A DNA stretch of 64,000 nucleotides from the NCBI GenBank assembly GCA_020633495.1, contig JACKDR010000001.1, positions 246,105 to 310,104 of the forward strand, given 5' to 3'. Of the stretch, positions 3,752-36,399 are shown piece by piece. The stretch comes from Kofleriaceae bacterium (lineage in GTDB: Bacteria; Myxococcota_A; Polyangia; Haliangiales; Haliangiaceae). The notes beneath the pieces are model-generated. The model was not told where the DNA came from. It saw nothing but the letters and a program-made list of their open reading frames with translations, and did not search any database. The translations under genes were made by a program, and so were the position numbers. Within the stretch, counting starts at the first letter, position 1. The number at the start of each line of letters is the position of its first letter.

Positions 3752-5812
3752 CTACTTCGCGACCGGCGCGAAGGTGTAGACGTGCTGCCCGGCGTCGAGG
3801 ATGAGCGGCGCGCGGCCGTCGTCGCCCGGCTCGCCGGGGCGCAAGGTCAGGCCGGCCAGCGGCGCGCGGGTCGTGATCAGCTGTGACACGCCGTCCTTGC
3901 CGACCAGCTGGGTGACCTCGCTCTGCCACTCGCCGGCGTCGAGGAGGAAGACCTTGCCCTTGCGCGTGATCTCGATGCGCCCGAGCCCGGGATCGACGTA
4001 GGCGCCCAGGCGCGCGGTCAGCCAGGCGTCATCGGGCGGCTCGGGCAGCTGCGTCTTCAGGTCGGCGAGGGACTCGCGCTGGCGATCCAGCGCCGCGTGC
4101 AGCTCGTCGCTGGCGCGGGCCTCACCGTCGAAGGCGATCTCGAGGAAGCGGCGCCGCACCGCGCCGCGGTAGGCGTTGGCGCCGCCGCCGTTGGTCAGGA
4201 GCACGACGCCGACGTCCTGCTCCGGCAGCATGAACATGTCGGCGGTGAAGCCGAGGGTGTTGCCGCCGTGGTGGACGATCTGCACGCCATGGTCGTTGGA
4301 CAGGAACAGGCCGAGCCCGTAGCTGTCGTCGTCGTTGATCTTGACCTGCGGCTCGCGCCGGTGCAGCAGGTTGGCCTCGGTGACCAGCTGCTTGCCGTCG
4401 GGCGTCTTGCCGCGCGCCAGCTCGAGCTCCATGAACCGGGCCATGTCGCGCACGCTCGACCACGCGGCGCCGGCCGGGCGGAGCGGCACCAGCGCGGTCT
4501 CGGCCGCGACCGGGATCGCGCCGTACTCGAGCGTCAGGCCGCGGCTGTGCGGCCCCGCGTGATCCGCCTTGGCGACCTTCTTGAAGTCGAACGTCGTCGA
4601 CTTCATCCCGAGCGGCTTGAACACCAGCGTCGCCATCGCGTCGTCGTAGGCGGGCCCGAGCTTCTTCTTGGGCGCCCACGCGTGGGCGCCGACGTAGCCG
4701 CCCGTCGCGACCAGCAGGTTGGAGTACTGGAAGGTCTCGCCGAAGCCGGTGGTCGGCACCATCGTCTTCATGCTGGCGAGGCGACGCTCGGCGTCCCAGC
4801 CCGCGTACTCGAAGATGAACTCGAGATCCTGGCGCGGCATGCCGGTGCACGCGCAGATCGTGTGGTGCAGCTGCAGCTGCTGGGTCATCGCGGCGTCGCC
4901 GAGCGCGAAGTCGGGCAGGACGTCGGTCACCGGCGTGTCCCAGGCCAGCTTGCCCTGGTCGACCAGCCTCGCCAGCATCAGCGTGGTCAGCGACTTGGTC
5001 GTCGAGCCGATCATGAACAGCGTCGAGGGATCGACCTTGTCCTTCTTGCCGAGAACCCGCACGCCGTGGCCGGCCTCGAGCACGATCTTGCCGCCGTGTA
5101 CCACCGCGATGGCCGCGCCGGGGACGCCGGCGAGCTGCCGCGCGTCCTCGACGAAGGCGTCGAACCGGGCGAGGTGGTCGGCGTCGAGGTTGGCGGGCTT
5201 GCCGGCGAACGACTCCTGGTCGACCCCCGGCACCTTCATGTCGAGGATGAGCGAGCCCAGCTGGGCGCCGCGGCGATCGATCGCGGCCTGCTCGCCCTGG
5301 ATCAGCACGATGTGCCAGACGGTGCCCTTGCGGCGCGCCACCGCCACCACGTCGCGGTGCTCGGCGGCGGGCGTGACGTAGATGATCTGGGCCACCTGGT
5401 CCCAGCCGTCGGTCGCCGGCAGGTCCACGGCCTGGTCGACCGCGAGCGAGAACGCGGGATCGACGACCAGCCAGGCGGCGGCGACCGCGGCGTCGCGATC
5501 CTTGGCCTCGAGCGCGAGCAGCGCCACGTGCAGGTCGCGCTCGGGATCGTCGACGCGCACCACGCCAGCGGCCTCGGCGACGAACCACGCGGCCGGGATC
5601 GTGACGATGGCCTGCCACGACGTCGTGATCGGGGTGTCGGCGTCGACCTGACGGTACGTCGGCCCCGCCGGCGTCACCGGCGGCGCGTCGACATCGGCGA
5701 CGGGCGCGACCGGCGTCGGGTCGACCGGGCGCGGCGAGGTGCCGCCGCCACACGAGATCAACAGGGCGGCCAGCCCGAGGGCGGTCGTGCGACGCGCTGG
5801 GTGCGTGTTCAT
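3752..5812 (-). CDS. Serine hydrolase of the beta-lactamase / penicillin-binding-protein (class C-like) family, lipoprotein
   Basis: 686 aa. Signal plus lipobox (LLISCGGG). Beta-lactamase-fold SxxK motif in ...STLFMIGSTTKSLTTLMLARLVDQGKL. Long N-terminal extension domain. Confidence 0.8.
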   Translation of the reverse strand: MNTHPARRTTALGLAALLISCGGGTSPRPVDPTPVAPVADVDAPPVTPAGPTYRQVDADTPITTSWQAIVTIPAAWFVAEAAGVVRVDDPERDLHVALLALEAKDRDAAVAAAWLVVDPAFSLAVDQAVDLPATDGWDQVAQIIYVTPAAEHRDVVAVARRKGTVWHIVLIQGEQAAIDRRGAQLGSLILDMKVPGVDQESFAGKPANLDADHLARFDAFVEDARQLAGVPGAAIAVVHGGKIVLEAGHGVRVLGKKDKVDPSTLFMIGSTTKSLTTLMLARLVDQGKLAWDTPVTDVLPDFALGDAAMTQQLQLHHTICACTGMPRQDLEFIFEYAGWDAERRLASMKTMVPTTGFGETFQYSNLLVATGGYVGAHAWAPKKKLGPAYDDAMATLVFKPLGMKSTTFDFKKVAKADHAGPHSRGLTLEYGAIPVAAETALVPLRPAGAAWSSVRDMARFMELELARGKTPDGKQLVTEANLLHRREPQVKINDDDSYGLGLFLSNDHGVQIVHHGGNTLGFTADMFMLPEQDVGVVLLTNGGGANAYRGAVRRRFLEIAFDGEARASDELHAALDRQRESLADLKTQLPEPPDDAWLTARLGAYVDPGLGRIEITRKGKVFLLDAGEWQSEVTQLVGKDGVSQLITTRAPLAGLTLRPGEPGDDGRAPLILDAGQHVYTFAPVAK

Positions 5813-5888
5813 GCGCAGTCATCCAACGGATCGGTCACGCCGTCAAGGCGACGGTCAGGGCGCGCCGGTCGTGTACGCTGCGCTCCAG

Positions 5889-6398
5889 ATGATGCCCTCC
5901 ATGAAGACGTCCGCGAGCGTGCTCGCGATCGCCCTGCTCGCCGCCACCGCGGCGTGCACCTCCTCGACGCCCGCCGCGGCCCCGGCGCACCCGGGCGACG
6001 GCACGACGCTCGCCGTCGGCGGCGCCGCGGATCCGACGCCGACCGGGCCGACCTGCGACGACGCCGGCCGCCACGCCGCCGAGCTCAGCGCCGAGGATGG
6101 CGAGCTCACGCCGGCCGAGCTCGACGCCCTGCACAGCGCGGTGACCTCCGCCTGCCAGGAGGACGCCTGGTCGGCCGAGCTGATCCGGTGCCTCGCCGAG
6201 GCCACCCCCCAGGGCAGCAACGACTGCGCGGCCAACCTGTCCGAGGCGCAGCAGAACGGGCTCATGCGCCGGATGATGCCGATCATCCAGAACCACGTCC
6301 CCGCCGCCGGCGCCACCGGCGCCTCGGACGACATGGAAGGTGGCACCGGCACCCGCAAGACCGAGGAGGCCGCCGATCCCTGCGAGGGCGGCGAGTAG
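5889..6398 (+). CDS. Small secreted 4-Cys lipoprotein, paralog family member A
   Basis: ORF 5739..6398; internal start MMPSMKTSASVLAIALLAATAAC (lipobox). Conserved with the 6513..7010 and 46272..46697 proteins: GPTCDDAGR, TSACQEDAWSAELIRCLAEAT, LSEAQQNGLMRRMMPI, C-terminal DPCEGGE. Confidence 0.55.
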   Translation: MMPSMKTSASVLAIALLAATAACTSSTPAAAPAHPGDGTTLAVGGAADPTPTGPTCDDAGRHAAELSAEDGELTPAELDALHSAVTSACQEDAWSAELIRCLAEATPQGSNDCAANLSEAQQNGLMRRMMPIIQNHVPAAGATGASDDMEGGTGTRKTEEAADPCEGGE

Positions 6399-6512
6399 CC
6401 CGCGACGGCGCCGTCGCCGCCTGTCGTCGGGCCCTGAAGGGCCGTACGCGCGCCATCGTGGGGATCACGGCGCACGGCACCGCCGCGTGCCCTCGTGTAC
6501 GATCCTCGGCAG

Positions 6513-7010
6513 ATGCCGCACGCTTCGCAGCCGTTCCCGTCCACGCTCACGCTCGCCCTGATCGCCGCGGCCGCCGCCGCGGCGGGCTGCGCCACCCGGT
6601 CCGCCGCCGCGCCGCGCGGGCCCGGTGACGCCGCCGGTGGAGGCGCGACGGCGAACGCCGGCCCGACCTGCGACGACGCCGGCCGCAACGCCGCGGCGCA
6701 GACCGGCAAGACCGACACGACCGGCATGTCGATGGACCAGCTCGACGCCGTCGGCGTCGCGGTCGCGACGGCGTGCGCCGAGGACGGCTGGTCCGCGGAC
6801 CAGATCCGGTGCATGGCCGAGGCCACCGCCGACGGCGGCACGGCGTGCTTCGACAAGCTGTCGGAGGCGCAGCGGAACGGGCTGGTCGAGCGGATGATGC
6901 CGATCTACGACGGCCACGGGGCCCCGGCCGGCGCCGACGGCGACGTCGACGCCGAGAGCGAGGACGCGGCCGACGACCTCGCGTCCGATCCCTGCGAGGG
7001 CGGCGAGTAG
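6513..7010 (+). CDS. Small secreted 4-Cys lipoprotein, paralog family member B (tandem to A)
   Basis: ORF 6495..7010. Start MPHASQPFPSTLTLALIAAAAAAAGC. Shares GPTCDDAGRNAA, ATACAEDGWSADQIRCMAEAT, LSEAQRNGLVERMMPI and DPCEGGE with member A. Confidence 0.55.
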   Translation: MPHASQPFPSTLTLALIAAAAAAAGCATRSAAAPRGPGDAAGGGATANAGPTCDDAGRNAAAQTGKTDTTGMSMDQLDAVGVAVATACAEDGWSADQIRCMAEATADGGTACFDKLSEAQRNGLVERMMPIYDGHGAPAGADGDVDAESEDAADDLASDPCEGGE

Positions 7011-7082: not shown

Positions 7083-8420
7083 TCAGTCGACGACGTCGAG
7101 CGGGCGCGCCCGGAGCGCCCGCTGCGACAGCCCGTGCTGATGGACCTGGTACCGCCAGCCGAGATCGCCGATGAGCCGGTAGGCGACGTCGGGCAGCGGC
7201 GAGCGCGCCATCAGCCGCAGCGCTGCGCCCGGGACGACGTCGCCGCCGGCCAGCGGCGTCGCCGCGGCGACCAGCGCCTGGTGGACGTGCGCGGCCGGCC
7301 CGTGCTGCTCGTCGAGCGGGACGTCGGGCTTGACCACGCCGCCGCCGCCGAGCGGCAGGCCGCCGGCCCAGTGGTAGCGGGCCTGGGTCGCGAAGTGGTG
7401 CGCGATCCGCATCGCGGTGCGGGTCTGCTCGGGCTCCGGGAAGCCGCAGTTCACGACCGCCACGAAGCGCGCCGGCGGCGCGCTCGCGGCGCGCTCGCGG
7501 GCGACCAGCTCGAGCGCGTGGGTGGCCAGCGCCGGCAGCGCGTCGACGTACAGCGGCGTCACCATCACGAACAGATCGGCGTCGGCGATCGAGCGCGCGG
7601 CGGCGCGGGCGCGCCCGCGGTCGTGGATGAACTCGGTGGCGAAGTGCAGCTCGGCCTCGACGCCCTGGCACTGCAGCAGATCGCCGAGGTCGCGGGCGAT
7701 CCGCTCGGACGCGCTGGTGCCCTTGATCTTGGCGCTGCCGACGACGAGCGCGACCCGGCGGGTCGGCACCGGCGGATCGAGCAGTGGCGTCGGGCGGGCC
7801 GCGACGAACAGCGCGTCGCGCAGCGGATCGCGGCCGTGGATCGACGTCCCGGGGCGGGTCTCGGAGGCGAGCATGGCGCGGATCGCGGCGGGCCAGTCGT
7901 CGCGCGCGGTGTCGTCGACGACCGCGGAGCCGACCCGCGCCGCGAGCATGTTGAGCGCGTTGGCGTCGGCGAGGTCGTGCCAGGTCCGCGCCTGCGCCAG
8001 ATCCGGCGCCGGCAGCCAGCCGAGCGCGTAGAGGTCGGCGGCGTGGTCGTAGCGGTGGCCGTGGTGGGTCAGCCCGGCGCGCTTCTCGAAGAACGGCGTC
8101 AGCAGGCAGATCAGCCGGTCCTGGGCCCGCTTGAGCGTGTAGCCGTGACCGCCGAACGTCACCGCGTCGAGCAGCACGACGCGATCGGCGTCGTGGATCG
8201 CGCGCACGATGTCCTGCTCGGCGTCGTGCGCCCGGCACACCCCCGGGGTCTTGACCCAGCAGTCGAACTCCCCCTGGCAGTACGCCAGCTCCAGCGCGGC
8301 GAGCTCGAAGGTGCGGACCTCGCCGGGCCACACCCAGCGCAGCTCGTCCTCGAGCACGGCGCCCAGCGCCTGCAACGATGGCGTGGCCGCCGAGGCGGCC
8401 GACAGGATCACGGTGCCCAT
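7083..8420 (-). CDS. Tandem flavodoxin-like NAD(P)H-dependent FMN reductase family protein, N-terminal half carrying a Cys cluster
   Basis: ORF 7083..8606. The upstream part is R-rich junk, and the first plausible start is MGTVILSAASAATPSLQ (cat at 8418..8420). Two flavodoxin-like halves (MGTVILSAAS...; RRVALVVGSAKIKGTSASERIARDL...FVMVTPLY). First half contains CQGEFDCWVKTPGVC (Cx5Cx7C), reminiscent of iron-sulfur flavoproteins. Confidence 0.6.
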   Translation of the reverse strand: MGTVILSAASAATPSLQALGAVLEDELRWVWPGEVRTFELAALELAYCQGEFDCWVKTPGVCRAHDAEQDIVRAIHDADRVVLLDAVTFGGHGYTLKRAQDRLICLLTPFFEKRAGLTHHGHRYDHAADLYALGWLPAPDLAQARTWHDLADANALNMLAARVGSAVVDDTARDDWPAAIRAMLASETRPGTSIHGRDPLRDALFVAARPTPLLDPPVPTRRVALVVGSAKIKGTSASERIARDLGDLLQCQGVEAELHFATEFIHDRGRARAAARSIADADLFVMVTPLYVDALPALATHALELVARERAASAPPARFVAVVNCGFPEPEQTRTAMRIAHHFATQARYHWAGGLPLGGGGVVKPDVPLDEQHGPAAHVHQALVAAATPLAGGDVVPGAALRLMARSPLPDVAYRLIGDLGWRYQVHQHGLSQRALRARPLDVVD

Positions 8421-8631
8421 GGCCGGTCCAGAAGCACCATCCGTGCCGGCGGGCGCCCGGTGACGGCCGCGTCGCAGCCGGTCCGGCGACGCAAGTCCTG
8501 CGACGGCCAGCGATATCCGCGACCTCGCGGCGGGGCCGCGCGCCGGGGCGGCGGCGCGCCGAGCGGATCGCGTCAACTCTGCGGAACCGGCCGCGCGGCG
8601 CGACAAGGCTGCGCGGGGCCGCCGCCGCGGC

Positions 8632-10422
8632 TCACGCCGCCGGCGGCCGGCGGTGCATGCGGACCCGGATGCCGACAGGGGACACGGTGAAGGAGAACTT
8701 CTCGTGGACGGCGTCGGCGGCGCCGACCCGGGTGACGTCGAAGGCCTGGTAGACGGTGGCGAGGACGACCCGCATCTCGACCAGGGCCAGGGTCCGGCCC
8801 GGGCAGATCCGCGGCCCCGAGCCGAACGGCATGTGGACCGACGGGGCGTGGGCGCCGGGACCGCGCTCGGCGTCGAGCCAGCGCGCCGGGCGGAACGCGG
8901 CGGCGTCGGCGAAGTTGGCGTCGTCGACGGCGGCGGGGCGGATCAGGCCGGCGACGTTGGTGCCGGCCGGCAGCTCGAGGTCGCCGAGCACGACGTCGTG
9001 GTTGGCCTCGACGAACATCGACGGTGCCACCGGGTGCAGGCGCATCGCCTCCTGGGCGACGCCGGTGATCCGGTGCAGGCGGTTGGCGGTGTCGAGGTCG
9101 GCCGGGACCGCGGCGTCGCCGGCGACCGCGGCGATCTCGGCGCGGACCGCCGCGACCTCGTCGGGCAGGTCGATCAGGTGGTGGACCGCCCACGCCAGCG
9201 TGTTGGCGGTAGTGTCCTCACCGGCGAGCAGCATCGTGACCAGGTTGCCGAAGATGACGTCGTCGTCGAACGGCGCGCCGTCGTCGTCGCGCGCCGCCAG
9301 CATGGCCTCGAGGAAGTTGGCGGGCCGCGCCGCCCGCGCCGGCTCGGCGGCCAGCGCGGCGCGCGCCGCCACCACCAGCTCGCCGAGCCACGCCCGCAGC
9401 GCCGCGACCGCGCGATCGGTGCGACGGTCGGAGGGCATGCGCAGGACCCGCCACCACGGCACCACCGAGTTGAGGCGACGCGCGAAGGTCGGGAAGAACC
9501 GCTCGAGGTGACGCTGGATGACGTCGCGGCCGCCGCCGAGGGTGTCGACGTCGTGGCCGAACACCAGCAGGGTCGTGACGTCGACGGTGAACCGCATGAG
9601 ATCGTCGAGCAGGTCGATCTCGGCGCCGGCGTCGGCGGCGCGCTCCCAGCGGGCGCGCAGGTTGCCGGCGACCCGGTGCAGCGTCGGGTAGAACGTCCGC
9701 AGGTGCTTCTGCGACAGCGCGCCCATCGCCAGCTTGCGCTGCGGCCGCCACGCCTTGCCCTCGGCGGAGAACACGCCGGCGACCCCGAGCTCGGCGAAGA
9801 TCGGCTCGACCCGGCCGTCGCGGCGGAACGCCTCGGGCCGCTCGCGCAGGGTCTGCTCGATCAGCGCGGTGTCGGTGGTCACGACCATGTCGCGGCTGCC
9901 CAGCTTGAGCCGGTACAGCGGGCCGTACTCGCGGGCCCAGGCCTCGAGCTGCAGGTGCAACCGGTCCAGATCGATCTGCAGCGCGTTGCCCAAGAGCGGC
10001 AGGCCGCGCGGCCCGGGCAGATCCGCCAGCCGGCGCCGCGGCGGTGCCGCCTCGACCCGGGCCAGCGCCGACAGATCGGCCCACACCGCGCCGTCGCGCT
10101 CCTCGACCGGGCACGCGCGCAGGCACTGCGGGCCACCGTCGCGCTGCCCGGTGGCGGCGTCGAACCGCCAGCGGTGGTTGCGGCACACCAGCGCGCCGCC
10201 GTCGAGCTCGCCCTCGCCGAGCAGCGCGCCCTGGTGCGGGCACAGGCCCTCGAAGACCCGCAGCGCGCCGCCGGCGCGCACGATCACGACGTCGACGCCG
10301 TCGGCCGCGGCGGCGAACGGCCCGTCACCGGCGACCTCGTCGGTGCTGGCCAGCCGCGACCAGCGCGCGCGGTCGTCATCGGCGGTCGCGGCGGCGGCGG
10401 CGGGGCGCGCGGGCGTGCTCAT
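8632..10422 (-). CDS. Cytochrome P450 fused to an N-terminal Rieske [2Fe-2S] domain
   Basis: True start MSTPARPAAAA at 10422 (cat 10420..10422). The longer listed ORF (to 11541) is an off-frame shadow of the upstream MFS gene. Rieske motifs CPHQG...CRNHRW (CxH...CxxH). P450 part has the ExxR helix K and heme-binding loop FGSGPRICPG. Start overlaps the MFS stop (TGATG). Confidence 0.8.
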   Translation of the reverse strand: MSTPARPAAAAATADDDRARWSRLASTDEVAGDGPFAAAADGVDVVIVRAGGALRVFEGLCPHQGALLGEGELDGGALVCRNHRWRFDAATGQRDGGPQCLRACPVEERDGAVWADLSALARVEAAPPRRRLADLPGPRGLPLLGNALQIDLDRLHLQLEAWAREYGPLYRLKLGSRDMVVTTDTALIEQTLRERPEAFRRDGRVEPIFAELGVAGVFSAEGKAWRPQRKLAMGALSQKHLRTFYPTLHRVAGNLRARWERAADAGAEIDLLDDLMRFTVDVTTLLVFGHDVDTLGGGRDVIQRHLERFFPTFARRLNSVVPWWRVLRMPSDRRTDRAVAALRAWLGELVVAARAALAAEPARAARPANFLEAMLAARDDDGAPFDDDVIFGNLVTMLLAGEDTTANTLAWAVHHLIDLPDEVAAVRAEIAAVAGDAAVPADLDTANRLHRITGVAQEAMRLHPVAPSMFVEANHDVVLGDLELPAGTNVAGLIRPAAVDDANFADAAAFRPARWLDAERGPGAHAPSVHMPFGSGPRICPGRTLALVEMRVVLATVYQAFDVTRVGAADAVHEKFSFTVSPVGIRVRMHRRPPAA

Positions 10423-11663
10423 CACCGCGCATCGTAGCCCGGCGCGGGCAGCCAGGCGACGAGCGCCAGCGCCGGCACCGCGACCGCGGCGGTGGCCGCC
10501 CAGAACGCGGGCCAGCCGGCGGCGGCGACCAGCGCGGCGCCGGCGAAGCCGAGGACCCGGGCCAGCAGCGACGACAGGCTGGTCAGGAGCGCGTACTGGG
10601 TGGCGCTGAACGCGCGGTCGCACAGCGACATCAGGTAGGCGACGAACGCGCCGGTGCCCATCGCCGAGGCCAGGTTGTCGATCACGACCGCGGCGCCGAG
10701 CACCGGCAGCGACCGGCCGGTGACCGCCAGCGCCAGGTAGCACAGGTTGGTCGACGCCTGGGCGACGCCGAAGACGATCAGGCAGCGGCGCGCGCCCCAC
10801 CGCGCCACCAGCGCGCCGGCGGTCAGGCCGCCGACCACCGTGCCGGCGAAGCCGAGCACCTTGTACAGCGTCGCGATCTCGGTGAACGAGAAGCCGGCGC
10901 CGTCCTTGAGGAACGGGATCACCATCTGGTTGACCATCAGCTCGCCGAACCGGAACAGCGCGACGAAGCCGAGCACGATCGCGATGCGACGGCGCCGCAG
11001 CAGCGCCGCCAGCGGCCGCCACGCCGCCTCGACCAGCGACGCCGGGCGCGCGGCGGCCTCGGCGGGCTCGATCGCGAGCAGCGTGCCGACGACGCCGAGC
11101 CCCATCAGCGCCGCGACGATCAGGTAGATCGTCCGCCACGGCAGGTGATCGGCCAGGACCAGCGCCAGCGTGCCGCTGACCAGCATCGCGGTCCGGTAGC
11201 CGAGGACGTACATCGCGCTGCCGGCGGCGCGCTCCTCGGGGTGCAGCGTGTCGGCGTTGAACGCGTCGATGACGACGTCCTGGCTGGCCGACAGGGTGGC
11301 GACGAGCACCGCGAGCACCGCGAGCGCCGCCGGCTCGGTGCGGGGCTCGACCGTGCCCATCGCCGCGATCGCGGCGGCGAGCGCGAGCTGCAGGACCAGG
11401 ATCCAGCCGCGGCGCCGGCCCAGCAGCGGCAGCCGGTAGCGATCGAGCAGCGGCGCCCACGCCCACTTGAACGTGTACGGCAGCCCGACCAGGCTGAGCG
11501 TGCCGATCGTCGCGAGGTCGACGTGGGCGGCGGTGAGCCACGCGGTCAGGGTCTGGGCGGTGAGCAGCAGCGGCAGCCCCGAGGAGAAGCCGAGCAGCGC
11601 GAGCACCAGGACCCGCCGGGACCGGAAGACGTCGAGCAGACCGATCCGGACCGGCGGTGACAC
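10422..11663 (-). CDS. AmpG-family MFS permease (muropeptide/lysophospholipid transporter-like)
   Basis: ORF 10422..12137. The N-terminal 150 aa are low-complexity shadow. Chosen start is the GTG at 11663 (VSPPVRIGLLDVFRSRRVLVLALLGFSSGLPLLL). Contains the AmpG-like motif GLPYTFKWAWAPLLDRY and 12+ hydrophobic segments. Confidence 0.65.
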   Translation of the reverse strand: MSPPVRIGLLDVFRSRRVLVLALLGFSSGLPLLLTAQTLTAWLTAAHVDLATIGTLSLVGLPYTFKWAWAPLLDRYRLPLLGRRRGWILVLQLALAAAIAAMGTVEPRTEPAALAVLAVLVATLSASQDVVIDAFNADTLHPEERAAGSAMYVLGYRTAMLVSGTLALVLADHLPWRTIYLIVAALMGLGVVGTLLAIEPAEAAARPASLVEAAWRPLAALLRRRRIAIVLGFVALFRFGELMVNQMVIPFLKDGAGFSFTEIATLYKVLGFAGTVVGGLTAGALVARWGARRCLIVFGVAQASTNLCYLALAVTGRSLPVLGAAVVIDNLASAMGTGAFVAYLMSLCDRAFSATQYALLTSLSSLLARVLGFAGAALVAAAGWPAFWAATAAVAVPALALVAWLPAPGYDAR

Positions 11664-12236: not shown

Positions 12237-15200
12237 TCAGCGGCCGCCGGCGGCGCCGGCCGCGGCGAACGCGATCGCCTCGGCCGGGACGTAGGGCGCG
12301 GCCCCGAACCGCGCCGCGGCGGCGAGCACCTCGCGCAGCGTCGCGGCCAGCGCGTCGTCGCGGCGGCCGTCGCGCCACGCCGCCAGCGCGGGGCCACGCG
12401 CCGGTGCCCACGCGTAGCACGTCCCCGGCTCGACCACCGCGGCGAGGCGCTCGGCGTGGTGCGCCAGCAGCGCGTCGTCGCCGGCCTCGACCGCGCCCTC
12501 GACGACGTGACGGTGGAACGTGACGACGTTGAACAGCAGCGTGCCGGTGGCGATGATCCGCTCGGCCTCGGCGATGATCTCGCGCCGCTGCCCGGGATCC
12601 TCGGTCAGCCAGGCCAGCGCGCCCAGCGACATCGGGCCGCAGAACGCCTCGCCGTGGGCGCGCGCGATCGCGACCGCGCGCTCGGCGGCGGCCAGCGCGG
12701 CCGGGCGATCGCCGGCACGCGCCAGCGCCTCGGCCATGACCGCCTCGAGCTCGCCGGCGTAGCGGTGGGCGCCGAGCCGCTCGGCCTCGGCGCGGCCGCG
12801 CCGGGCCTGCTCGACGGCGTCGGCGGGGCGGCCGCGGTAGACCAGCACCAGCGCGCGCTGCATCTCGGTCAGCATCAGCGGGTAGCGCTCGCCCAGCCGC
12901 TCGGCGAGGCGGCTCAGCTCCTCGAAGGTGACGAGGACGTCGCGGTCGGCGTCGTGCCAGAAGTCGAGGAACGCCTGCATCAGGCGGTTAGGGATGGCGT
13001 AGCGCTCGAGGCCGACCTCGCCGCACAGCGCGACGCAGGCGGCGTAGCGGGCGCGGGCGGTCGGCAGCTCGCCGGCGGCGAAGTCGGCGTCGGCGAGGCC
13101 CGACAGGGCGCGGGCCTCGAGCTCGCGATCGCCGGCGCGCCGCGCCTCGGCCAGCGCCCGCTCGTGCTCGCGACGCGACGCCGCCTCCCGGCCGCACGCG
13201 AACAGCAGGCTGCCGCGGTGATAGGCGCACTGCGCCCGCTCGTGCGGCAGATCGAGCGCGGCGGCCAGCGGCTCGGCGACGTCGAGCGCGGCGAACGCGG
13301 GCTCGAAGACCGAGCGCAGGCGGTGGCCGGCGGCGACGCCGATCCACGCGCGGCAGCGGGCAGCGTCGTCGACCGCGGCCTCGACCGCGGCCTGGTAGGC
13401 CTCGACCGCGGCCGCGCCCTGGCCGGTCCGGCGCGCCAGCTCGCCGTGCAGCGACGCCAGCGCGTAGCGATCCGCGGCCGTGGTCGCCAGCTCGCGGCCG
13501 CGCGACGCCAGCGCGATCGCGCGGTCGAGCCGCAGCGCCTCGGCCTCGGCGTGCGCGGCGACGACGAAGGCGGCGGCCGCGGCCGGATCCTCGGCGCGCG
13601 CCAGGTGCTCGGCGCGCAGCACCGGGTCGCGGCCGTCGAACCAGGCGGCGGCGGCGCGGTGCAGCTCGGCGCGGCGGCCGCGGGTCAGCGACGCGTAGAC
13701 GCCGTCGCGGATCAGCGCGTGGTGGAACAGGTAGCCGTCGTCGACCGGCGCCACCAGGTGGCCGGCGACCAGCGCGTCGCAGCCGGCGGCGGGCGCGCCG
13801 AGGATCGCGCGCACCGCGGCCAGCTCGAAGCGCTGGCCGAGCACCGCGGCGGCCTGCAGCAGCCGCCGATCCGCGGCCGGCAGGCGATCGACGCGCGACA
13901 GCACCAGGCTCTGGATCGACGCCGGCACCCCGCCCTGGGTGGCGTCGCGGGCGTGCTCGAGCAGCTGCTCGAGGTACAGCGGGTTGCCGTTGGCGCGCTC
14001 GAGGCAGCCCCGGACCACGCCGTCGAGCTCGCCGAAGACCTCGCCGGCGAGCGCGCGCGCCTCCTCGGTGCGCAGCGGCGCCAGCGCCAGCGTCACCTGC
14101 GGCACGACGACGTCGTCGCCGCGGCCGCGCGCCTGCACCGGGTCGCCCTCGACCCGCGACGTCGACAGCACGACCGCGGCGCAGCCGGCGGCGGCGCGGG
14201 CCAGCGCGTCGAGCCGGCCCAGGGTCGCGGCGTCGGCCCAGTGGACGTCCTCGATCACCAGCAGCGTGGGCCGCCGCGCCGCCGCGGCGTGCAGCGCGGC
14301 GCCGAGCGCCCGCCGCTTGCCGGCCTCGCGGGCGTCGTCGGTCATCGCCTGGTACAGGGCGCGGTGGCGCTCGGCCGGCGCCAGGTCGAGCAGGTCGGCG
14401 AGGCACGGCTCGTCGTCGGGCGCGATCACCCCGGCGGCGACGACGCCGGCGACCGCGGCGGCCCGGGCCGCGACGTCGGCGCCGCCCTCGACGCCGAGCA
14501 GGTCCTCGACCGCGGCGCGCATCGCGCCGTGACCGCGGCCGGCGCCGAAGTCGAGGACCAGCGCGACGTGGCTGGCGAAGCCGAGGCCGTCGGCGCGATC
14601 GCGGACCTCGGCGACCAGCCGGGTCTTGCCGATGCCGGCGTCGCCGCGCAGGTGGACCCAGCCGCCGCGCCCGGCGTCGAGGCAGCCCTCGAGCACCGAG
14701 GTCAGCTGGCGCACCTCGGCGCGCCGGCCGACGAACGCGCGATCGCGCGGCGCCGCCCGCGCCGCGCGCAGGCCGAGCAGCTTGAACACCGGCACCGCGC
14801 CGGCGAGGCCCTTGATCGGGACCTCGCCCACCGCCTCGAACAGCGCGACCGCCTCGGTGGCGCGCCGGACCGCGTCCGACACCATGGTCTCGCCGGCGGT
14901 CGCCTTGTCCTGCAGGCGCGCCGCCAGGTTCACGGCGTCGCCGGTGACCGTGTACTCCTGGTGGTGGCGGCTGCCCAGCTCGCTGGCCACGACCTCGCCG
15001 GTGGCCAGCCCGATGTGGACCCGCAGCGGCACCGGCAGCTCGGCGGCGAGGGCCTCGACGCGGCGGTGGATCTCGACCGCGGCGCGCACCGCGCGCTCGG
15101 GATCGTTGTCGTGGGCGACGGGCGCGCCGAAGATGCCCATGACGTTATCGCCGATGTGCTTGTCGATCGCGCCGCCGTAGGCGAGGACGACGCCGTCGAC

Positions 15201-15509
15201 GGTCTCGAAGAAGCGGGTCAGCAGCGCCTGGACCTCCTCGGGATCCAGCGTCGAGCTCAGCCGGGTGTAGCCGGCGAGGTCGGCGAACAGCGCGGTGACC
15301 GGGCGCCGCTCGCTGGGTCGCGGCGGCGCGGCGACCGGGCGCGCCGTGGCGGCGCCGCCGCCGAGCGCGACGCCGCAGCCGCCGCAGAAGCGCTCGTCGG
15401 GCTGGTTGACGAAGCCGCACGCGACGCACGGCGCGGCCAGCGCGCCGCCGCACCCGGCGCAGAACCGGCGCCCCGCGCGGTTGTCGAGCTGACAGGCCGG
15501 ACACTCCAT
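12237..15509 (-). CDS. Multidomain signal transducer: double zinc ribbon + class III adenylate/guanylate cyclase + AAA/STAND ATPase + TPR-like repeats
   Basis: 1090 aa. N-terminal CPACQ..CAGCG..CVACG..CGGCG zinc ribbons. Cyclase core RPVTALFADLAGYTRLSS...IGDNVMGIFGAP...GLATGEVVA...TVTGDAVNLAARLQD. P-loop GDAGIGKTRL. Long helical repeat C-terminus. Confidence 0.8.
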   Translation of the reverse strand: MECPACQLDNRAGRRFCAGCGGALAAPCVACGFVNQPDERFCGGCGVALGGGAATARPVAAPPRPSERRPVTALFADLAGYTRLSSTLDPEEVQALLTRFFETVDGVVLAYGGAIDKHIGDNVMGIFGAPVAHDNDPERAVRAAVEIHRRVEALAAELPVPLRVHIGLATGEVVASELGSRHHQEYTVTGDAVNLAARLQDKATAGETMVSDAVRRATEAVALFEAVGEVPIKGLAGAVPVFKLLGLRAARAAPRDRAFVGRRAEVRQLTSVLEGCLDAGRGGWVHLRGDAGIGKTRLVAEVRDRADGLGFASHVALVLDFGAGRGHGAMRAAVEDLLGVEGGADVAARAAAVAGVVAAGVIAPDDEPCLADLLDLAPAERHRALYQAMTDDAREAGKRRALGAALHAAAARRPTLLVIEDVHWADAATLGRLDALARAAAGCAAVVLSTSRVEGDPVQARGRGDDVVVPQVTLALAPLRTEEARALAGEVFGELDGVVRGCLERANGNPLYLEQLLEHARDATQGGVPASIQSLVLSRVDRLPAADRRLLQAAAVLGQRFELAAVRAILGAPAAGCDALVAGHLVAPVDDGYLFHHALIRDGVYASLTRGRRAELHRAAAAWFDGRDPVLRAEHLARAEDPAAAAAFVVAAHAEAEALRLDRAIALASRGRELATTAADRYALASLHGELARRTGQGAAAVEAYQAAVEAAVDDAARCRAWIGVAAGHRLRSVFEPAFAALDVAEPLAAALDLPHERAQCAYHRGSLLFACGREAASRREHERALAEARRAGDRELEARALSGLADADFAAGELPTARARYAACVALCGEVGLERYAIPNRLMQAFLDFWHDADRDVLVTFEELSRLAERLGERYPLMLTEMQRALVLVYRGRPADAVEQARRGRAEAERLGAHRYAGELEAVMAEALARAGDRPAALAAAERAVAIARAHGEAFCGPMSLGALAWLTEDPGQRREIIAEAERIIATGTLLFNVVTFHRHVVEGAVEAGDDALLAHHAERLAAVVEPGTCYAWAPARGPALAAWRDGRRDDALAATLREVLAAAARFGAAPYVPAEAIAFAAAGAAGGR

Positions 15510-25260: not shown

Positions 25261-26592
25261 TCACGCCGCCCGCAGGCCGCCGGCCGCGGCCCAGCCGCGC
25301 TCGAGCCCGGCCCAGTCGGCGACCGCGCCGAGCCGCGCCAGCACCGCGTAGAGCCCGAAGCGGAGCCGGAACAGGAACAGCACCCGGCCCGGCAGGCCGA
25401 GCTTCATGATCGCGCGCTTGTCGCGCAGGACGTCGGCGCCGGCGAGCCCGGCGCCGGGCTCGACCGCGCGGGCGCCGTCGACCAGCAGCGGCGCGAAGAA
25501 CGCGCGCAAGAGGCCCCGCAGGTGCGCGACCGCGGCGTCGCCGCGCGGCGGCGTCGCGCCCAGCCCGCGCATCGCGTCGGCGATCGCCGCGGCGTCGTCG
25601 GCGCGCACCGCCGCGACCAGCGCCGCCAGCGCCGCGACCATCTCCGGCTCGAAGCGCCGGACGCAGCCGAAGTCGTAGATCACGACCTTGCCGTCGTCAC
25701 GGAACGCGTAGTTGCCCGGGTGCGGGTCGGCGTGGAACACGCCGTGCCGGTACAGCGTCGCGACGTAGAGCTCGAACAGCGCGACGCCGGCGCGATCGCG
25801 CGCGGCCTGCGACGGCGCCGCGGCGAGGAAGGCGTCGAGGGTCCGGCCCGGCAGCCAGCGCGTGGTCAGCACCGCGGTCGCCGAGTACGCGCGCACGACC
25901 TCGGGGATGACGATCGTCGGGTGGCCGGCGAACAGGCGGCGCAGCTCGTCCTGGCGGTCGGCCTCGAGCCCGAGGTCGCACTCCTCGAGGAACGCCTGGC
26001 GGGCCTCGTCGATCATGCCGCGCACCGCGCCGCCGGCGCCGAACAGCGTCGCCATCACCGGCCCGATGCGGGCGGCGCGGAAGTCGGCGCGCATCGCGGC
26101 CTCGATGCCGCGGTGGCGGACCTTGACCGCGACCTCGGTGCCGTCGGGCAGGCGGCCGTGGTGGACCTGCCCGATGCTGGCCACCGCGATCGGCTCGCGG
26201 TCGAGCCCGGCCAGGAGCGCGTCGGCGCGGTCGCCGAGGGCCTCGCGCACGGTGGCCTCGACCACCGGCCACGGGCTGGCCGGCGCCTGGGTCTGCAGCA
26301 GCGCCAGCAGGCCCCGCACCTCGGGCGGCAGCGACGCGTCGACGTAGCCGAGGATCTGGCCGGCCTTCATCGCGATGCCCTTGAGCTCGCCGAGCTGGGT
26401 GGCGAGGCCGGCGATCTTCGCGAGGTCGGCGTCGTCGGGGCCGGCGCCATCGTCATCGCCGCGGCGACCGAGCAGCGCGCCGGCGGCGCCCATCGCGCCC
26501 CGGCCGGTCTTCCACAGCCGGCGCAGCGCGGAGGTCGGGACGTCGCGGGCGGGGGTGGCGCGGAAGCGAGCGCGAAGGTCGTCGGGGGTCAT
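25261..26592 (-). CDS. ABC1/UbiB-family atypical protein kinase
   Basis: 443 aa. ABC1 motifs IAVASIGQVHHGRLPDGTEVAVKVRHRGIE...HGVFHADPHPGNYAF...VIYDFG. Confidence 0.8.
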   Translation of the reverse strand: MTPDDLRARFRATPARDVPTSALRRLWKTGRGAMGAAGALLGRRGDDDGAGPDDADLAKIAGLATQLGELKGIAMKAGQILGYVDASLPPEVRGLLALLQTQAPASPWPVVEATVREALGDRADALLAGLDREPIAVASIGQVHHGRLPDGTEVAVKVRHRGIEAAMRADFRAARIGPVMATLFGAGGAVRGMIDEARQAFLEECDLGLEADRQDELRRLFAGHPTIVIPEVVRAYSATAVLTTRWLPGRTLDAFLAAAPSQAARDRAGVALFELYVATLYRHGVFHADPHPGNYAFRDDGKVVIYDFGCVRRFEPEMVAALAALVAAVRADDAAAIADAMRGLGATPPRGDAAVAHLRGLLRAFFAPLLVDGARAVEPGAGLAGADVLRDKRAIMKLGLPGRVLFLFRLRFGLYAVLARLGAVADWAGLERGWAAAGGLRAA

Positions 26593-26610
26593 GACGGGAT
26601 CTCCAGGAAG

Positions 26611-26642
26611 TGATAGTCTCTATCATATGAGAGGTTCTATCA
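26611..26642. promoter_or_regulatory. AT-rich palindromic operator-like site (TGATAG-TCT-CTATCA plus a third CTATCA half-site) in the 34-bp divergent intergenic region
   Basis: TGATAGTCTCTATCA at 26611..26625 is a perfect 6-3-6 inverted repeat. A further CTATCA lies at 26637..26642. Local GC drops sharply (aggaagtgatagtctctatcatatgagaggttctatcaaaagg) in a 74% GC background. It sits between a TetR gene and a divergent gene. Confidence 0.5.
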
Positions 26643-31993: not shown

Positions 31994-33512
31994 CTACTCG
32001 CGGCTGCCGAAGATGTCGTCGCCGCCGCCGGGCTTGGTCTTGGTCGTCTTGGTCGTCTTGGTCGTCTTGTGGGACGACTTGCTCGACGACTTGCTCGACG
32101 ACTTGCTCGACGAGCCGTCGTCGGTGGTCGCGGTCGCGGCCGCCGCGTCCGGCGCCACGCCGGCGTCGATCGCGACGGCGACCGCCGCCGCCGCGTCAGG
32201 CGGCGCCGCCGCGGTCTCGACCCCGGCGTCGACGGCCACCGCCGCCGCGGTTCCGGACGGCCCCTCGGGGCCCGGATCGGTGGCGCCGCTGCCCGGATCG
32301 CTCGCCGCCGGCGTCGACGCGCCCGCGCCGCCGCCGCCGCCCTTGCCGCCGCCGACCACGACCACCGTCGCCGCGATCGCGCCGCCGGCGACCACGACGG
32401 CGCCGATGATCAGCCCGAGCTTGCTCTTCTTCGGCGCGGCCATCGCGGTGCCGGTCATGACCTGCGCCGCGGTGCCGGTCACGCTGGACGGCCCGGGGTG
32501 GTACGACGGGTGCTGCGACGGCGGCGGCGTGTGGTAGCCGGGCACCGGCGTCGACGGCGACGACGGCATCGCCATCGTCGGCACGCTGGCGGCGCGCGCC
32601 ACGCCGGGGCGCACGCCCAGGGTCCGCGCGCAGCGCTCCGCGATCGCCGCCGCGGTCGCCGGATCGCTGGCGTACGGCACCAGCGCCGCCGCCAGCTCGG
32701 CGACGTTCTGGGTCCGCTGCTCGGGCTCCTTCTCGAGGCACCGCGCCACGACCACGTCGAGGCCGCCGGGCAGCGGCACCTGCAGCGGCGGCAGCGGATC
32801 CATCGCGACCTTGAGGCACATCTCGCTGAAGGCCTCGGACTCGAAGGGGCGGCGCCCGCCCAGGATCTCGTAGATCACGACCCCGAGCGACCACACGTCG
32901 GAGCGGGCGTCGACGGTGCGGGTCGAGCGCATCTGCTCCGGCGACATGTACGCCGGCGTGCCCATGACCGCCTGGGTCCGGGTCAGGCCGGCGTCGACGG
33001 TCATCGGCGCCTTGGAGATGCCGAAGTCGAGGACCTTGAGCAGCAGCGAGCCGTCGCGACGCCGGGTCACGAAGAAGTTCGACGGCTTGATGTCGCGATG
33101 GACGATGCCCAGCGAGTGCGCCTCGGCCAGGCCGTCGCACGCCTGCAGCATCAGGTCGGCGGCGACCGCGGGGTTGAACGGCCCGTAGTGGCGCAGCATC
33201 GCGCCCAGGTCGCCGCCGTCGAGGTACTCCATCACCATGTAGGGCGCGCCGTCGGGCAGCGTGCCGACGTCGATGACCCGGGCGACGTGCTCGCTCTTGA
33301 GCTTGACCGCCGCCTGGGCCTCGCGCAGGAAGCGCTGCACCACCTCGACGTTGCCGAGCACCTGCGGCAGCAGGAACTTGATGGCCACCGGCTGGTCGAG
33401 CTGGAGGTGGTGGGCCTTGGCGACCACGCCCATGCCGCCCTCGCCCAGCACGCTCTCGATCCGGTACTTGCCCAGCAGGATCGTGCCCGGGGCCGGCGCG
33501 CCGTGCGTCATC
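31994..33512 (-). CDS. Ser/Thr protein kinase with TM segment and low-complexity C-terminal tail
   Basis: Start MTHGAPAPGTILLGKYRI at 33512 with GGAGG SD. Hanks motifs GEGGMGVV, VAIK, HRDIKPSN, DFG, GTPAYMSPE. Tail SSSKSSSKSSSKSSHKTTKTTKTTKTKPGGG, from 12-bp tandem repeats near 32030..32110. Confidence 0.85.
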
Positions 33513-33601
33513 GAGAGACCTCCACCGGTTGACGCTAGCCGATGCGCCGCGGCGCGGCAACGGCCGCGGCGGCCGGGGTGGTACCGTCCCGCCAGCGTGT
33601 G

Positions 33602-34717: not shown

Positions 34718-34718
34718 G

Positions 34719-36370: not shown

Positions 36371-36399
36371 CCGGGCGCGCCGCGCGATCCTCGTGGCGC

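What the first reader, a model, noticed from the sequence alone, without database searches (positions are those of the whole stretch)
7083..11663. Rieske[2Fe-2S]-cytochrome P450 fusion, translationally coupled to an AmpG-like MFS permease and followed by a tandem flavodoxin-like reductase
The P450 (FGSGPRICPG heme loop) carries an N-terminal Rieske domain (CPHQG...CRNHRW). This is an unusual fusion topology: characterised self-sufficient P450s carry reductase domains C-terminally or use plant-type ferredoxins. Its ATG overlaps the stop of an AmpG-family permease (TGATG). Two hundred bp downstream lies a two-domain flavodoxin-like FMN reductase with a Cx5Cx7C cluster. Together these would be a complete NAD(P)H -> FMN -> Rieske -> P450 electron chain plus a dedicated permease, that is, a self-contained uptake-and-oxidation module for an unknown, possibly muropeptide-like or lipidic, substrate.
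Basis: seen in the sequence. Interest (0 to 1): 0.7.

Follow-up and report, generated by a model that had tools for sequence, protein, structure and literature searches.

The report
Natural Rieske ferredoxin–cytochrome P450 fusion enzyme
The gene encodes a real, widely conserved but apparently unstudied enzyme in which a small iron-sulfur electron-carrier domain is fused in front of a cytochrome P450 oxygenase, whereas the neighbouring permease and flavoprotein genes are next to it only in this genome.

Summary
The sequence observation is correct. On the minus strand lie an AmpG-family MFS permease (10422-11663), a 596-aa Rieske[2Fe-2S]-P450 fusion (8632-10422) whose ATG overlaps the permease stop (TGATG), and, 211 bp downstream, a 445-aa tandem flavodoxin-like protein with an invariant Cx5Cx7C motif (7083-8420).

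The fusion is not a frameshift artefact. More than 120 full-length homologues (57-72% identity) occur in MAGs of Myxococcota, Acidobacteriota, Gemmatimonadota and Methylocella. All four Rieske ligands and all P450 signatures are invariant in a 25-sequence alignment. The Rieske domain is closest to T4moC, an electron-carrier ferredoxin. The P450 domain is closest to CYP102/CYP505 heme domains.

The proposed three-gene uptake-and-oxidation module is not supported. None of 26 distinct loci with a fusion homologue had AmpG or the flavoprotein nearby. None of 83 flavoprotein loci had a P450 or AmpG, and none of 3 AmpG loci had a P450.

Best reading: a partly self-sufficient P450 with a built-in Rieske ferredoxin, reduced by a separately encoded and unidentified reductase, acting on an unknown lipophilic substrate. 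I found no paper describing a natural Rieske-P450 fusion. It is a new variant of known P450-redox-partner fusions and a good biochemical target.

The parts
8632..10422 (-). Rieske[2Fe-2S]-cytochrome P450 fusion gene (596 aa plus stop)
   Evidence: ORF and start. Pfam Rieske and p450. Identical NCBI protein P0001 and more than 120 full-length homologues.
10069..10362 (-). Rieske ferredoxin domain (residues 21-118)
   Evidence: PF00355 E=1.7e-14. Best solved relative is T4moC, E=1.4e-13. Beta-rich in the AF2 model.
10234..10242 (-). Rieske box 1, C61-P62-H63
   Evidence: Invariant in 25 sequences.
10174..10185 (-). Rieske box 2, C80-R81-N82-H83 (16 residues after H63)
   Evidence: C80, N82 and H83 are invariant and R81 is at least 90% conserved.
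10024..10068 (-). Interdomain linker (residues 119-133), variable in the family and ending in the conserved DLPGP hinge
   Evidence: Variable columns in A1. pLDDT below 50 at residues 123-125.
8647..10023 (-). P450 monooxygenase domain (residues 134-592)
   Evidence: PF00067 E=3.5e-77. AGEDTT, E458-x-x-R461 and F510/R514 are invariant. Foldseek TM 0.84-0.89 to P450 BM3/CYP505 heme domains.
8797..8826 (-). Heme-binding loop F533-G542 (FGSGPRICPG; C540 is the axial thiolate)
   Evidence: Eight of the ten residues, including C540, are invariant; S535 is at least 90% conserved and I539 varies (L or M in some sequences).
10420..10424 (-). TGATG stop/start overlap between the permease and the fusion gene
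   Evidence: Read directly from the sequence.
10422..11663 (-). AmpG-family (PAT family) MFS permease, 413 aa, GTG start; a neighbour in this genome only
   Evidence: TIGR00901 442.6 bits, above cutoff 350. The equivalog models score below their cutoffs. Not near fusion homologues elsewhere.
8421..8631 (-). 211-bp intergenic spacer between the fusion and the flavoprotein gene
   Evidence: No promoter-like or terminator-like consensus site. Predicted fold is no better than shuffles, z = -0.5.
7083..8420 (-). Tandem flavodoxin-like protein (445 aa); a neighbour in this genome only
   Evidence: FMN_red match at residues 222-323. Conserved family of about 440 aa. AF2 pTM 0.85. Weak NQO1/azoreductase/ArsH similarity. 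No P450 near 83 homologous loci.
8235..8279 (-). Cys motif C48-x5-C54-x7-C62 in the N-terminal flavodoxin-like domain (with C105 nearly invariant)
   Evidence: Invariant in 14 sequences. The loop has pLDDT below 50 in the metal-free model.

Best explanation
The gene at 8632-10422 (minus strand) encodes a member of a conserved bacterial family of natural fusion proteins. A T4moC-like Rieske-type [2Fe-2S] ferredoxin domain (residues ~21-118) is joined by a short variable linker to the N-terminus of a eukaryote-like (E-class, CYP102-like fold) P450 monooxygenase domain.

Inferred mechanism: NAD(P)H reduces a separately encoded flavoprotein reductase. That reductase reduces the Rieske cluster one electron at a time. 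The Rieske domain hands the two electrons needed for O2 activation to the heme, either within one chain or between subunits of an oligomer. The P450 then hydroxylates or otherwise oxidises a lipophilic substrate whose identity is unknown.

The enzyme is therefore 'half self-sufficient', like XplA or CYP51-ferredoxin, not fully self-sufficient like P450 BM3 or P450 RhF. The AmpG-family permease upstream and the tandem flavodoxin-like protein downstream are each members of independently conserved families. They sit beside the fusion gene only in this Kofleriaceae lineage. The permease is probably co-transcribed here, but there is no evidence that either protein is part of the enzyme system.

Shown: the domain identities, ligand and motif conservation, conservation of the fusion, and non-conservation of the neighbours. 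Inferred: cofactor loading, direction of electron flow, type of reductase and class of substrate.
For: Domains and motifs: (Rieske plus p450 in 25 of 25 aligned members; C61/H63/C80/H83, AGEDTT, ExxR and C540 invariant).

Fusion conserved: 120 listed hits, all with both Pfam domains, 56-72% identity, in Kofleriaceae, Nannocystaceae, Vicinamibacteria, Thermoanaerobaculia and Methylocella MAGs; Polyangiales, Gemmatimonadaceae; 35 clusters at 50% identity among the best 150 carry the standard Rieske motif, plus P0253 with a longer spacer, identities down to 32%.

Rieske domain of the electron-carrier type: best solved relatives are T4moC at 1.4e-13, then the naphthalene, carbazole and biphenyl dioxygenase ferredoxins; AndAb ferredoxin, 1.8e-9. 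It lacks the extra cysteines next to the ligands that form the disulfide of high-potential bc1-type Rieske proteins (sequence, plus my own knowledge).

P450 domain is an O2-activating monooxygenase type: acid-alcohol pair E402-D403-T404-T405; fold closest to the BM3/CYP505 fatty-acid hydroxylase heme domains.

Precedent for Rieske-to-P450 electron transfer in trans: the Rieske-type ferredoxin SpFdx4 was purified as a native redox partner of P450 DoxA (PMC12979805).

No reductase domain in the polypeptide and no Pyr_redox-type reductase among the window ORFs scanned.

Neighbours not conserved.
Against: There are no biochemical data for any member, so cluster and heme loading and electron flow are inferred.

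The P450 N-terminus normally lies far from the proximal, redox-partner face of the heme, and the linker is only about 15-20 residues. Intramolecular transfer is therefore not obviously possible. The AF2 output gave no coordinates or PAE to test this.

Low-potential Rieske ferredoxins (about -150 to -170 mV, my own knowledge) are weaker reductants than the usual P450 ferredoxins.

Unfused P450-only members of the same family exist at 38-54% identity, and one fused member has lost a Rieske cysteine (P0258). The Rieske domain is thus dispensable in some lineages.

The one-base stop/start overlap with the permease and the presence of a flavoprotein 211 bp downstream would suit a local functional link, and I cannot exclude one for this genome.
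Confidence: 0.7

Rival explanations
1. In this genome the AmpG-like permease imports a substrate. The tandem flavodoxin-like Fe-S flavoprotein takes electrons from NAD(P)H and reduces the Rieske domain, which reduces the P450. The three genes would then be a self-contained uptake-and-oxidation unit.
For: The three genes are co-directional with a one-base stop/start overlap between permease and P450. No terminator-like site lies in the 211-bp spacer. The flavoprotein has an FMN_red domain and an invariant Cys motif. The flavoprotein family and the fusion family both occur in Myxococcota and Acidobacteriota MAGs. Distant relatives of the flavoprotein sit beside another small monooxygenase (PF13826), which hints at an oxygenase-partner role.
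Against: The adjacency is absent from every other locus examined from all three sides: 0 of 26 distinct fusion loci, 0 of 83 flavoprotein loci and 0 of 3 AmpG loci. The 72%-identical Kofleriaceae fusion locus L005 also lacks both neighbours. The nearest structural relatives of the flavoprotein are two-electron quinone/azo reductases and ArsH, matched only weakly (E about 1e-4, TM about 0.5). The permease scores as ordinary AmpG family, and its closest homologues have unrelated neighbours.
Confidence: 0.12
2. The Rieske domain is not the electron donor to the heme. It might act as a redox or iron sensor, an oligomerisation or solubilising module replacing the membrane anchor of eukaryote-like P450s, or an electron carrier for another enzyme.
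For: It occupies the position of the N-terminal anchor, directly before the conserved LPGPxGLPxxGN hinge. Unfused family members exist. One fused member has lost a cluster ligand. The short linker sits at the 'wrong' end of the P450 fold for proximal-face docking (my own knowledge of P450 structures).
Against: All four ligands are invariant in 25 diverse members, and the surrounding ferredoxin surface is strongly conserved. That is expected for a functional redox centre. The closest relatives are dedicated electron-carrier ferredoxins. Fusion of a P450 to its ferredoxin or flavodoxin is an established pattern. A free Rieske ferredoxin serves as a native partner of a P450 (PMC12979805).
Confidence: 0.12
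3. The fusion is an assembly or frameshift artefact that joins two separate genes.
For: The source is a MAG. Stop-to-stop ORFs in 75% G+C DNA are long and misleading: the frame is open for 969 codons.
Against: More than 120 independent full-length homologues from many assemblies and phyla share the architecture and a similar length. No unfused relative examined has a separate Rieske gene beside it.
Confidence: 0.01

Closest known systems
XplA (CYP177A1) of Rhodococcus, a flavodoxin-P450 fusion
   Same: A single small electron-carrier domain is fused to the N-terminus of a P450. The NAD(P)H-dependent reductase is a separate protein, so the enzyme is only partly self-sufficient (my own knowledge).
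   Different: The carrier here is a Rieske [2Fe-2S] domain, not an FMN flavodoxin. XplA's reductase XplB is encoded next to it, whereas no conserved reductase neighbour exists here. The P450 families are unrelated.
CYP51-ferredoxin fusion of Methylococcus capsulatus (CYP51fx / MCCYP51FX)
   Same: A natural P450-ferredoxin fusion that needs an external reductase (the abstract of PMC7947880 was seen; the rest is my own knowledge).
   Different: That ferredoxin is C-terminal and is not of the Rieske type. This P450 domain is not a CYP51 (best matches are CYP102, CYP97 and CYP170).
P450 BM3 (CYP102A1) and CYP505, and P450 RhF (CYP116B)
   Same: The P450 domain has the BM3-like fold (TM 0.84-0.89, 22-25% identity). 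All are natural P450-redox-partner fusions.
   Different: Those enzymes carry a complete reductase at the C-terminus (FMN/FAD CPR, or FMN/[2Fe-2S] PFOR) and are fully self-sufficient. This protein has no flavin or NAD(P)H domain, and its partner domain is N-terminal.
T4moC, the Rieske ferredoxin of toluene 4-monooxygenase, and the dioxygenase ferredoxins (NDO, CarAc, BphF)
   Same: Closest solved relatives of the N-terminal domain (1.4e-13 to 5e-4). They share the ligand spacing and the CPHQ...LL.EG / CR.H.W.F motifs.
   Different: Those are free proteins of about 110 aa that deliver electrons to diiron or Rieske/mononuclear-iron oxygenases. Here the domain is covalently attached to a heme-thiolate oxygenase.
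SpFdx4 with DoxA of Streptomyces peucetius (PMC12979805)
   Same: A Rieske-type Cys2His2 ferredoxin studied as a native redox partner of a P450.
   Different: It is a separate protein acting in trans on a class I actinomycete P450, not a fusion.

Membership tests
Cytochrome P450 superfamily (PF00067) | Profile match above the curated threshold over the whole domain | tested here: met
   260.6 bits against cutoff 22.8, profile positions 2-438 of 462. All 25 family members match.
Cytochrome P450 superfamily (PF00067) | Heme-thiolate loop FxxGxRxCxG, ExxR in helix K, and the I-helix (A/G)Gx(D/E)T(T/S) oxygen-activation motif | tested here: met
   PFGSGPRICPG with C540, E458/R461, and A400-G401-E402-D403-T404-T405. 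These signature positions are invariant in 25 sequences.
Cytochrome P450 superfamily (PF00067) | Heme bound, with a 450-nm Fe(II)-CO spectrum | not testable with these tools
   Needs purified protein.
Rieske-type [2Fe-2S] ferredoxin (PF00355; electron-carrier class) | CxH-X15-17-CxxH ligand set | tested here: met
   C61-P-H63, 16 residues, C80-R-N-H83. All four ligands are invariant in 25 sequences. Pfam 53.9 bits against cutoff 20.3.
Rieske-type [2Fe-2S] ferredoxin (PF00355; electron-carrier class) | Small stand-alone-type ferredoxin fold rather than an oxygenase alpha-subunit with a catalytic mononuclear iron domain | tested here: met
   The best solved matches are the ferredoxins of about 110 aa: T4moC, and the NDO, CarAc and BphF ferredoxins. 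No ring-hydroxylating alpha-subunit C-terminal domain was found.
Rieske-type [2Fe-2S] ferredoxin (PF00355; electron-carrier class) | Cluster present, with the Rieske EPR signature and a low potential | not testable with these tools
   Needs EPR and potentiometry. The absence of the bc1-type disulfide cysteines next to the ligands suggests a low-potential type (inference from sequence).
Fully self-sufficient P450s (CYP102 CPR type, CYP116B PFOR type) | NAD(P)H-binding flavin reductase domain in the same polypeptide | tested here: not met
   Only the Rieske and p450 domains are found in 596 aa.
P450 fused to a single electron-carrier domain (XplA and CYP51fx kind) | One ferredoxin or flavodoxin domain fused to the P450, with the reductase separate | tested here: met
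   Architecture. The Rieske type of carrier is the difference from known members.
P450 fused to a single electron-carrier domain (XplA and CYP51fx kind) | Electron transfer from the fused carrier to the heme | not testable with these tools
   Needs kinetics. AF2 gave pLDDT 85 and pTM 0.78 but no interdomain geometry.
AmpG / PAT family muropeptide MFS transporters | Score above the family (subfamily) model cutoff | tested here: met
   TIGR00901 442.6 bits against 350.
AmpG / PAT family muropeptide MFS transporters | Score above the equivalog cutoffs for AmpG proper | tested here: not met
   NF008867 411.6 bits against 656; NF008238 389.8 bits against 756. Family membership is supported, but substrate equivalence is not established.
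NADPH-dependent FMN reductase / flavodoxin-like fold (PF03358) | Profile match and an FMN-binding loop | tested here: met
   C-terminal domain only: 43.7 bits against cutoff 24. The GSAKxKGTSxS loop is conserved. The N-terminal domain has no Pfam hit but is predicted as an alternating strand-helix (alpha/beta) domain.
Iron-sulfur flavoprotein | Fe-S cluster bound by the cysteine motif | not testable with these tools
   C48, C54 and C62 are invariant and C105 is at least 90% conserved. The spacing differs from the compact Isf motif (my own knowledge). Occupancy is unknown.
Conserved three-gene operon (permease, Rieske-P450, flavoprotein) | Recurrence of the gene neighbourhood in other lineages | tested here: not met
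   0 of 26 distinct fusion loci, 0 of 83 flavoprotein loci and 0 of 3 AmpG loci.

The most novel reading that the evidence does not exclude
Rieske-P450 fusions are an undescribed class of P450 redox system, widespread in soil and freshwater Myxococcota, Acidobacteriota and Gemmatimonadota. In this class a Rieske-type [2Fe-2S] cluster is the immediate electron donor to a eukaryote-like P450. Because the domain sits at the N-terminus, transfer may occur between subunits of a head-to-tail oligomer, as in Rieske oxygenases. The strong cross-phylum conservation (57-72% identity) would point to one specific, still unknown physiological substrate.
Probability: 0.45. Interest if true: 0.65.

Novelty: new variant of a known kind. 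Interest (0 to 1): 0.5.

Why it matters
P450 systems are classified by how electrons reach the heme, and natural fusions such as BM3, RhF, XplA and CYP51fx have been models for electron transfer and templates for biocatalyst design.

A Rieske-type cluster as the fused donor would add a new class. It would extend the very recent finding that free Rieske ferredoxins can serve P450s. It would also raise a clear structural question: how does an N-terminal donor reach the proximal face of the heme?

The family is large, found in several phyla and highly conserved, and it usually stands alone in the genome. It therefore probably performs one conserved reaction in abundant but poorly cultured soil bacteria.

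The negative result matters too. Adjacency in a single genome, even with a stop/start overlap, was not enough to infer a pathway here.

Tried and rejected
1. Frameshift or assembly artefact: rejected.

2. Conserved three-gene module: tested from the P450 side, the flavoprotein side and the AmpG side. No recurrence was found.

3. Any conserved neighbour of the fusion gene that could reveal the substrate: ORF clustering over 24 loci found none. It found only synteny among four closely related MAGs, plus Ser/Thr kinase paralogues.

4. A ferredoxin reductase elsewhere in the 64-kb window: Pfam scans of 30 further ORFs (33 with the three focal proteins) found no Pyr_redox or FNR-type gene. Several shorter GC3-supported ORFs were not scanned.

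5. Promoter or terminator signals, or RNA structure, in the 211-bp spacer: nothing found. The sigma-70 consensus scan is of little value for a 75% G+C myxobacterium.

6. A solved structure with the two-domain architecture: none. Foldseek matches cover only the P450 part.

7. A sequence relative of the flavoprotein in the PDB: none. Fold matches are weak.

8. Literature: eight full-text searches with different wordings found no natural Rieske-P450 fusion. Two leads were unrelated: GPP34-P450 fusions (PMC11706023) and a Rieske citation (PMC4021335).

9. One origin versus several origins of the fusion: a quick NJ tree interleaves fused and unfused members, but it is star-like and unreliable. No conclusion was drawn.

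10. The AFDB50 fold library was not available.

11. An exact look-up of P0001 in the contig index failed.

12. CYP family number and substrate: not determinable. All solved and curated relatives aligned residue by residue were only 22-25% identical.


Full report
**1. What is in the sequence**

The window is about 75% G+C, so mechanical ORF lists are full of spurious frames. Three co-directional minus-strand genes fit the finding exactly:
- an MFS permease at 10422-11663 (413 aa, GTG start);
- a 596-aa protein at 8632-10422;
- a 445-aa protein at 7083-8420.

The permease stop and the ATG of the next gene overlap by one base (…GCGCGG**TGATG**AGC…). A 211-bp spacer separates the second and third genes.

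Pfam finds Rieske (residues 21-100, E=1.7e-14) and p450 (residues 136-565, E=3.5e-77) in the middle protein. It finds MFS_1/Acatn in the first protein and FMN_red (residues 222-323, E=2.8e-11) in the third. NCBIfam places the permease in the AmpG family model TIGR00901 (442.6 bits, cutoff 350). It scores below the cutoffs of the two AmpG equivalog models.

**2. The fusion is real and conserved**

The protein is identical to NCBI's own gene call in a Kofleriaceae MAG (P0001). All 120 best database hits carry both Pfam domains and are 553-653 aa long. They are 56-72% identical, and they come from Kofleriaceae, Nannocystaceae, Vicinamibacteria, Thermoanaerobaculia and Methylocella MAGs. A genome scan adds Polyangiales and Gemmatimonadaceae.

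In a 25-sequence alignment:
- the Rieske ligands C61, H63, C80 and H83 (CxH-X16-CxxH) are invariant;
- the I-helix AGEDTT, the K-helix E458-x-x-R461 and F510/R514 of the FRPxRW motif are invariant;
- the key positions of the heme loop PFGSGPRICPG, including C540, are invariant;
- the first ~20 residues and the linker (residues ~119-133) vary;
- the P450 domain begins with a conserved DLPGPxGLPxxGN hinge, like the hinge that follows the membrane anchor of microsomal P450s.

All 25 sequences match both Pfam models.

An exhaustive search of representatives clustered at 50% identity gave 931 clusters at E≤1e-30. Among the best 150, 35 carry the standard Rieske motif, and P0253 is also fused but with a longer spacer between the two boxes. 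Identities among the fused clusters go down to 32%. About 113 clusters are P450-only proteins of ~460-495 aa at 38-54% identity. One unfused member was checked on its contig and is complete, with no Rieske gene nearby.

So the same P450 family exists with and without the Rieske domain. A quick NJ tree interleaves the two forms but is too star-like to count events.

**3. What kind of domains**

The Rieske domain alone is closest to T4moC, the soluble Rieske ferredoxin of toluene 4-monooxygenase (E=1.4e-13). Next come the ferredoxins of the naphthalene, carbazole and biphenyl dioxygenases. NCBIfam's best Rieske hit is the anthranilate dioxygenase ferredoxin AndAb. These are dedicated one-electron carriers, not catalytic oxygenase subunits.

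The P450 domain is only 22-25% identical to the solved P450s with which it was aligned residue by residue. The best sequence hits are CYP505A30 and CYP102, CYP97 carotenoid hydroxylases and CYP170A1. An AlphaFold2 model (pLDDT 85, pTM 0.78) superposes best on P450 BM3 and CYP505 heme domains (TM 0.84-0.89). No solved structure covers both domains.

There is no flavin or NAD(P)H domain in the polypeptide, so it is not a fully self-sufficient P450.

**4. The neighbours**

From the fusion side:
- tblastn with the window's AmpG and flavoprotein sequences was run against all 36 loci then held. Twenty-five of them (L001-L025) carry a fusion homologue at 50-72% identity, with up to 8 kb of flank where the contig allows (several contigs are only 5-7 kb). 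L002 and L004 duplicate L001 and L003, so 23 are distinct. There was not a single hit, and L005, the 72%-identical Kofleriaceae relative, was among them.
- Gene tables for three fusion loci show unrelated neighbours: GntR and a Cu-monooxygenase; a cytochrome-D1-like protein and a methyltransferase; GGDEF and AraC.
- Clustering all ORFs of 24 loci found no widely shared neighbour. It found only synteny among four related MAGs, plus Ser/Thr kinase paralogues.

From the flavoprotein side:
- The protein belongs to its own well-conserved family of ~440 aa (239 hits; the 120 listed are 56-67% identical; Kofleriaceae, Polyangiaceae, Bryobacteraceae, Vicinamibacterales).
- Eighty-three loci (37 of at least 6 kb) contain no Rieske-P450 or AmpG homologue.

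From the AmpG side:
- The three closest homologues with usable contigs (67-70% identity) are followed by SIMPL or SnoaL-type genes.

The rest of the window is an ordinary myxobacterial chromosome segment. It holds EF-G, a beta-lactamase-family hydrolase, lipoproteins, DUF1801, a cyclase-AAA-TPR protein, nitronate monooxygenase, an ABC transporter, ABC1 kinases, Ser/Thr kinases and glycosidases. The ORFs scanned include no ferredoxin reductase and no biosynthetic cluster. The 211-bp spacer shows no consensus promoter, terminator or unusual RNA structure.

**5. The flavoprotein**

The alignment shows an invariant YCQGEFDCWxKTPGxC (C48, C54, C62) plus a nearly invariant C105 in the N-terminal half. 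A GSAKxKGTSxS flavin-binding loop lies in the C-terminal half.

AlphaFold2 predicts a compact two-domain protein (pTM 0.85) whose Cys loop is poorly modelled, as expected for an unmodelled metal site. Foldseek finds only weak similarity (E~1e-4, TM~0.5) to NQO1, azoreductases, ArsH and MdaB, which are two-electron NAD(P)H:quinone/azo reductases. It has no sequence relative in the PDB.

Nothing marks it as a Rieske or ferredoxin reductase.

**6. Most likely mechanism**

The fusion is best read as a P450 with a built-in Rieske ferredoxin:

NAD(P)H → separate flavoprotein reductase (unidentified, encoded elsewhere) → Rieske [2Fe-2S] → heme → O2 activation through the conserved acid-alcohol pair → oxidation of a lipophilic substrate.

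A Rieske-type ferredoxin that serves as a native partner of a P450 in trans was reported in 2026 (SpFdx4 with DoxA, PMC12979805). That makes the electron-transfer step plausible.

The P450 N-terminus normally lies far from the proximal face and the linker is short. Transfer between subunits of an oligomer, as in Rieske oxygenases or dimeric BM3, is therefore a serious possibility. This is inference and could not be tested, because no coordinates were returned.

Substrate class (fatty acyl, isoprenoid or similar) is inferred only from the nearest P450 folds and is weakly supported.

**7. Comparison with what is known**

The protein works like XplA (N-terminal flavodoxin-P450) and CYP51-ferredoxin: one carrier domain is fused and the reductase is separate. 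It differs in the type of carrier (Rieske), in the P450 family, and in lacking a linked reductase gene. It is not a member of the self-sufficient CYP102 or CYP116B classes, because that defining feature was tested and not met.

Eight full-text searches found no description of a natural Rieske-P450 fusion. The searchable library omits most subscription journals, so prior mention cannot be excluded. The architecture is also already visible in database annotations: JGI labels it 'cytochrome P450/nitrite reductase/ring-hydroxylating ferredoxin subunit'.

**8. Verdict**

- Observation: confirmed.
- Interpretation: partly supported. The fusion is right; the three-gene module is not.
- Novelty: a new variant of a known kind.
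- Interest: moderate (0.5). It is a clean and abundant target for P450 enzymology, but the more exciting self-contained uptake-and-oxidation reading is unlikely.

Noticed in passing
window 5739-6398 (+) and 6495-7010 (+): Two tandem, paralogous lipoprotein-like ORFs (219 and 171 aa), each with a signal/lipobox-like N-terminus and the same C-terminal ...DPCEGGE ending. Neither has a Pfam match.
   Followed up: partly
window 3752-5812 (-): A 686-aa Beta-lactamase-family serine hydrolase (PF00144, E=1.7e-53) lies about 4.6 kb from the AmpG-family permease. Whether the two are linked, as in AmpG/AmpC-type signalling, was not examined.
   Followed up: no
L093 (about 9286-10766), L103 7299-7994 and about 10 similar metagenome loci: Distant relatives (31-36% identity) of the tandem flavodoxin-like protein sit in a recurrent cluster: TetR regulator, flavoprotein, af470-like monooxygenase (PF13826), NAD-dependent epimerase. 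This hints that the wider family may partner small oxygenases.
   Followed up: partly
proteins P0258, P0253, P0312 and P0036 (relatives of the window's fusion): Variants within the P450 family. P0258 has a Rieske domain that lost the second cysteine ligand. P0253 has a 27-residue spacer between the Rieske boxes. P0312 (N-terminally truncated) carries a GT1 glycosyltransferase signature in place of the Rieske domain. P0036 has a low-complexity insert of about 50 aa (NSATPCGTS-like repeats).
   Followed up: no
L007 6472-7989 and L008 2106-3632: A Ser/Thr protein kinase with a C-terminal FHA domain lies directly upstream of the fusion gene in two Nannocystaceae-like MAG loci. It is not seen in other lineages.
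   Followed up: partly
window 8632-10422 (-), residue C100 (GPQCLRACP): A fifth cysteine in the Rieske domain is invariant across the family and aligns with a cysteine of T4moC. It is not a cluster ligand, and its role is unknown.
   Followed up: no
window 25261-26619 (-) and 53308-54702 (+); 31994-34552 (-), 34647-36512 (+), 49628-52270 (+): Two ABC1 atypical kinase genes and three Ser/Thr kinase genes (one fused to an alpha/beta hydrolase) lie within 64 kb, a kinase density I regard as typical of myxobacterial genomes (my own knowledge).
   Followed up: no
window 12237-15509 (-): A 1090-aa protein with a double zinc ribbon, adenylate/guanylate cyclase, AAA_16 ATPase and TPR domains lies 574 bp upstream of the permease start, just beyond the divergent DUF1801 gene.
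   Followed up: no
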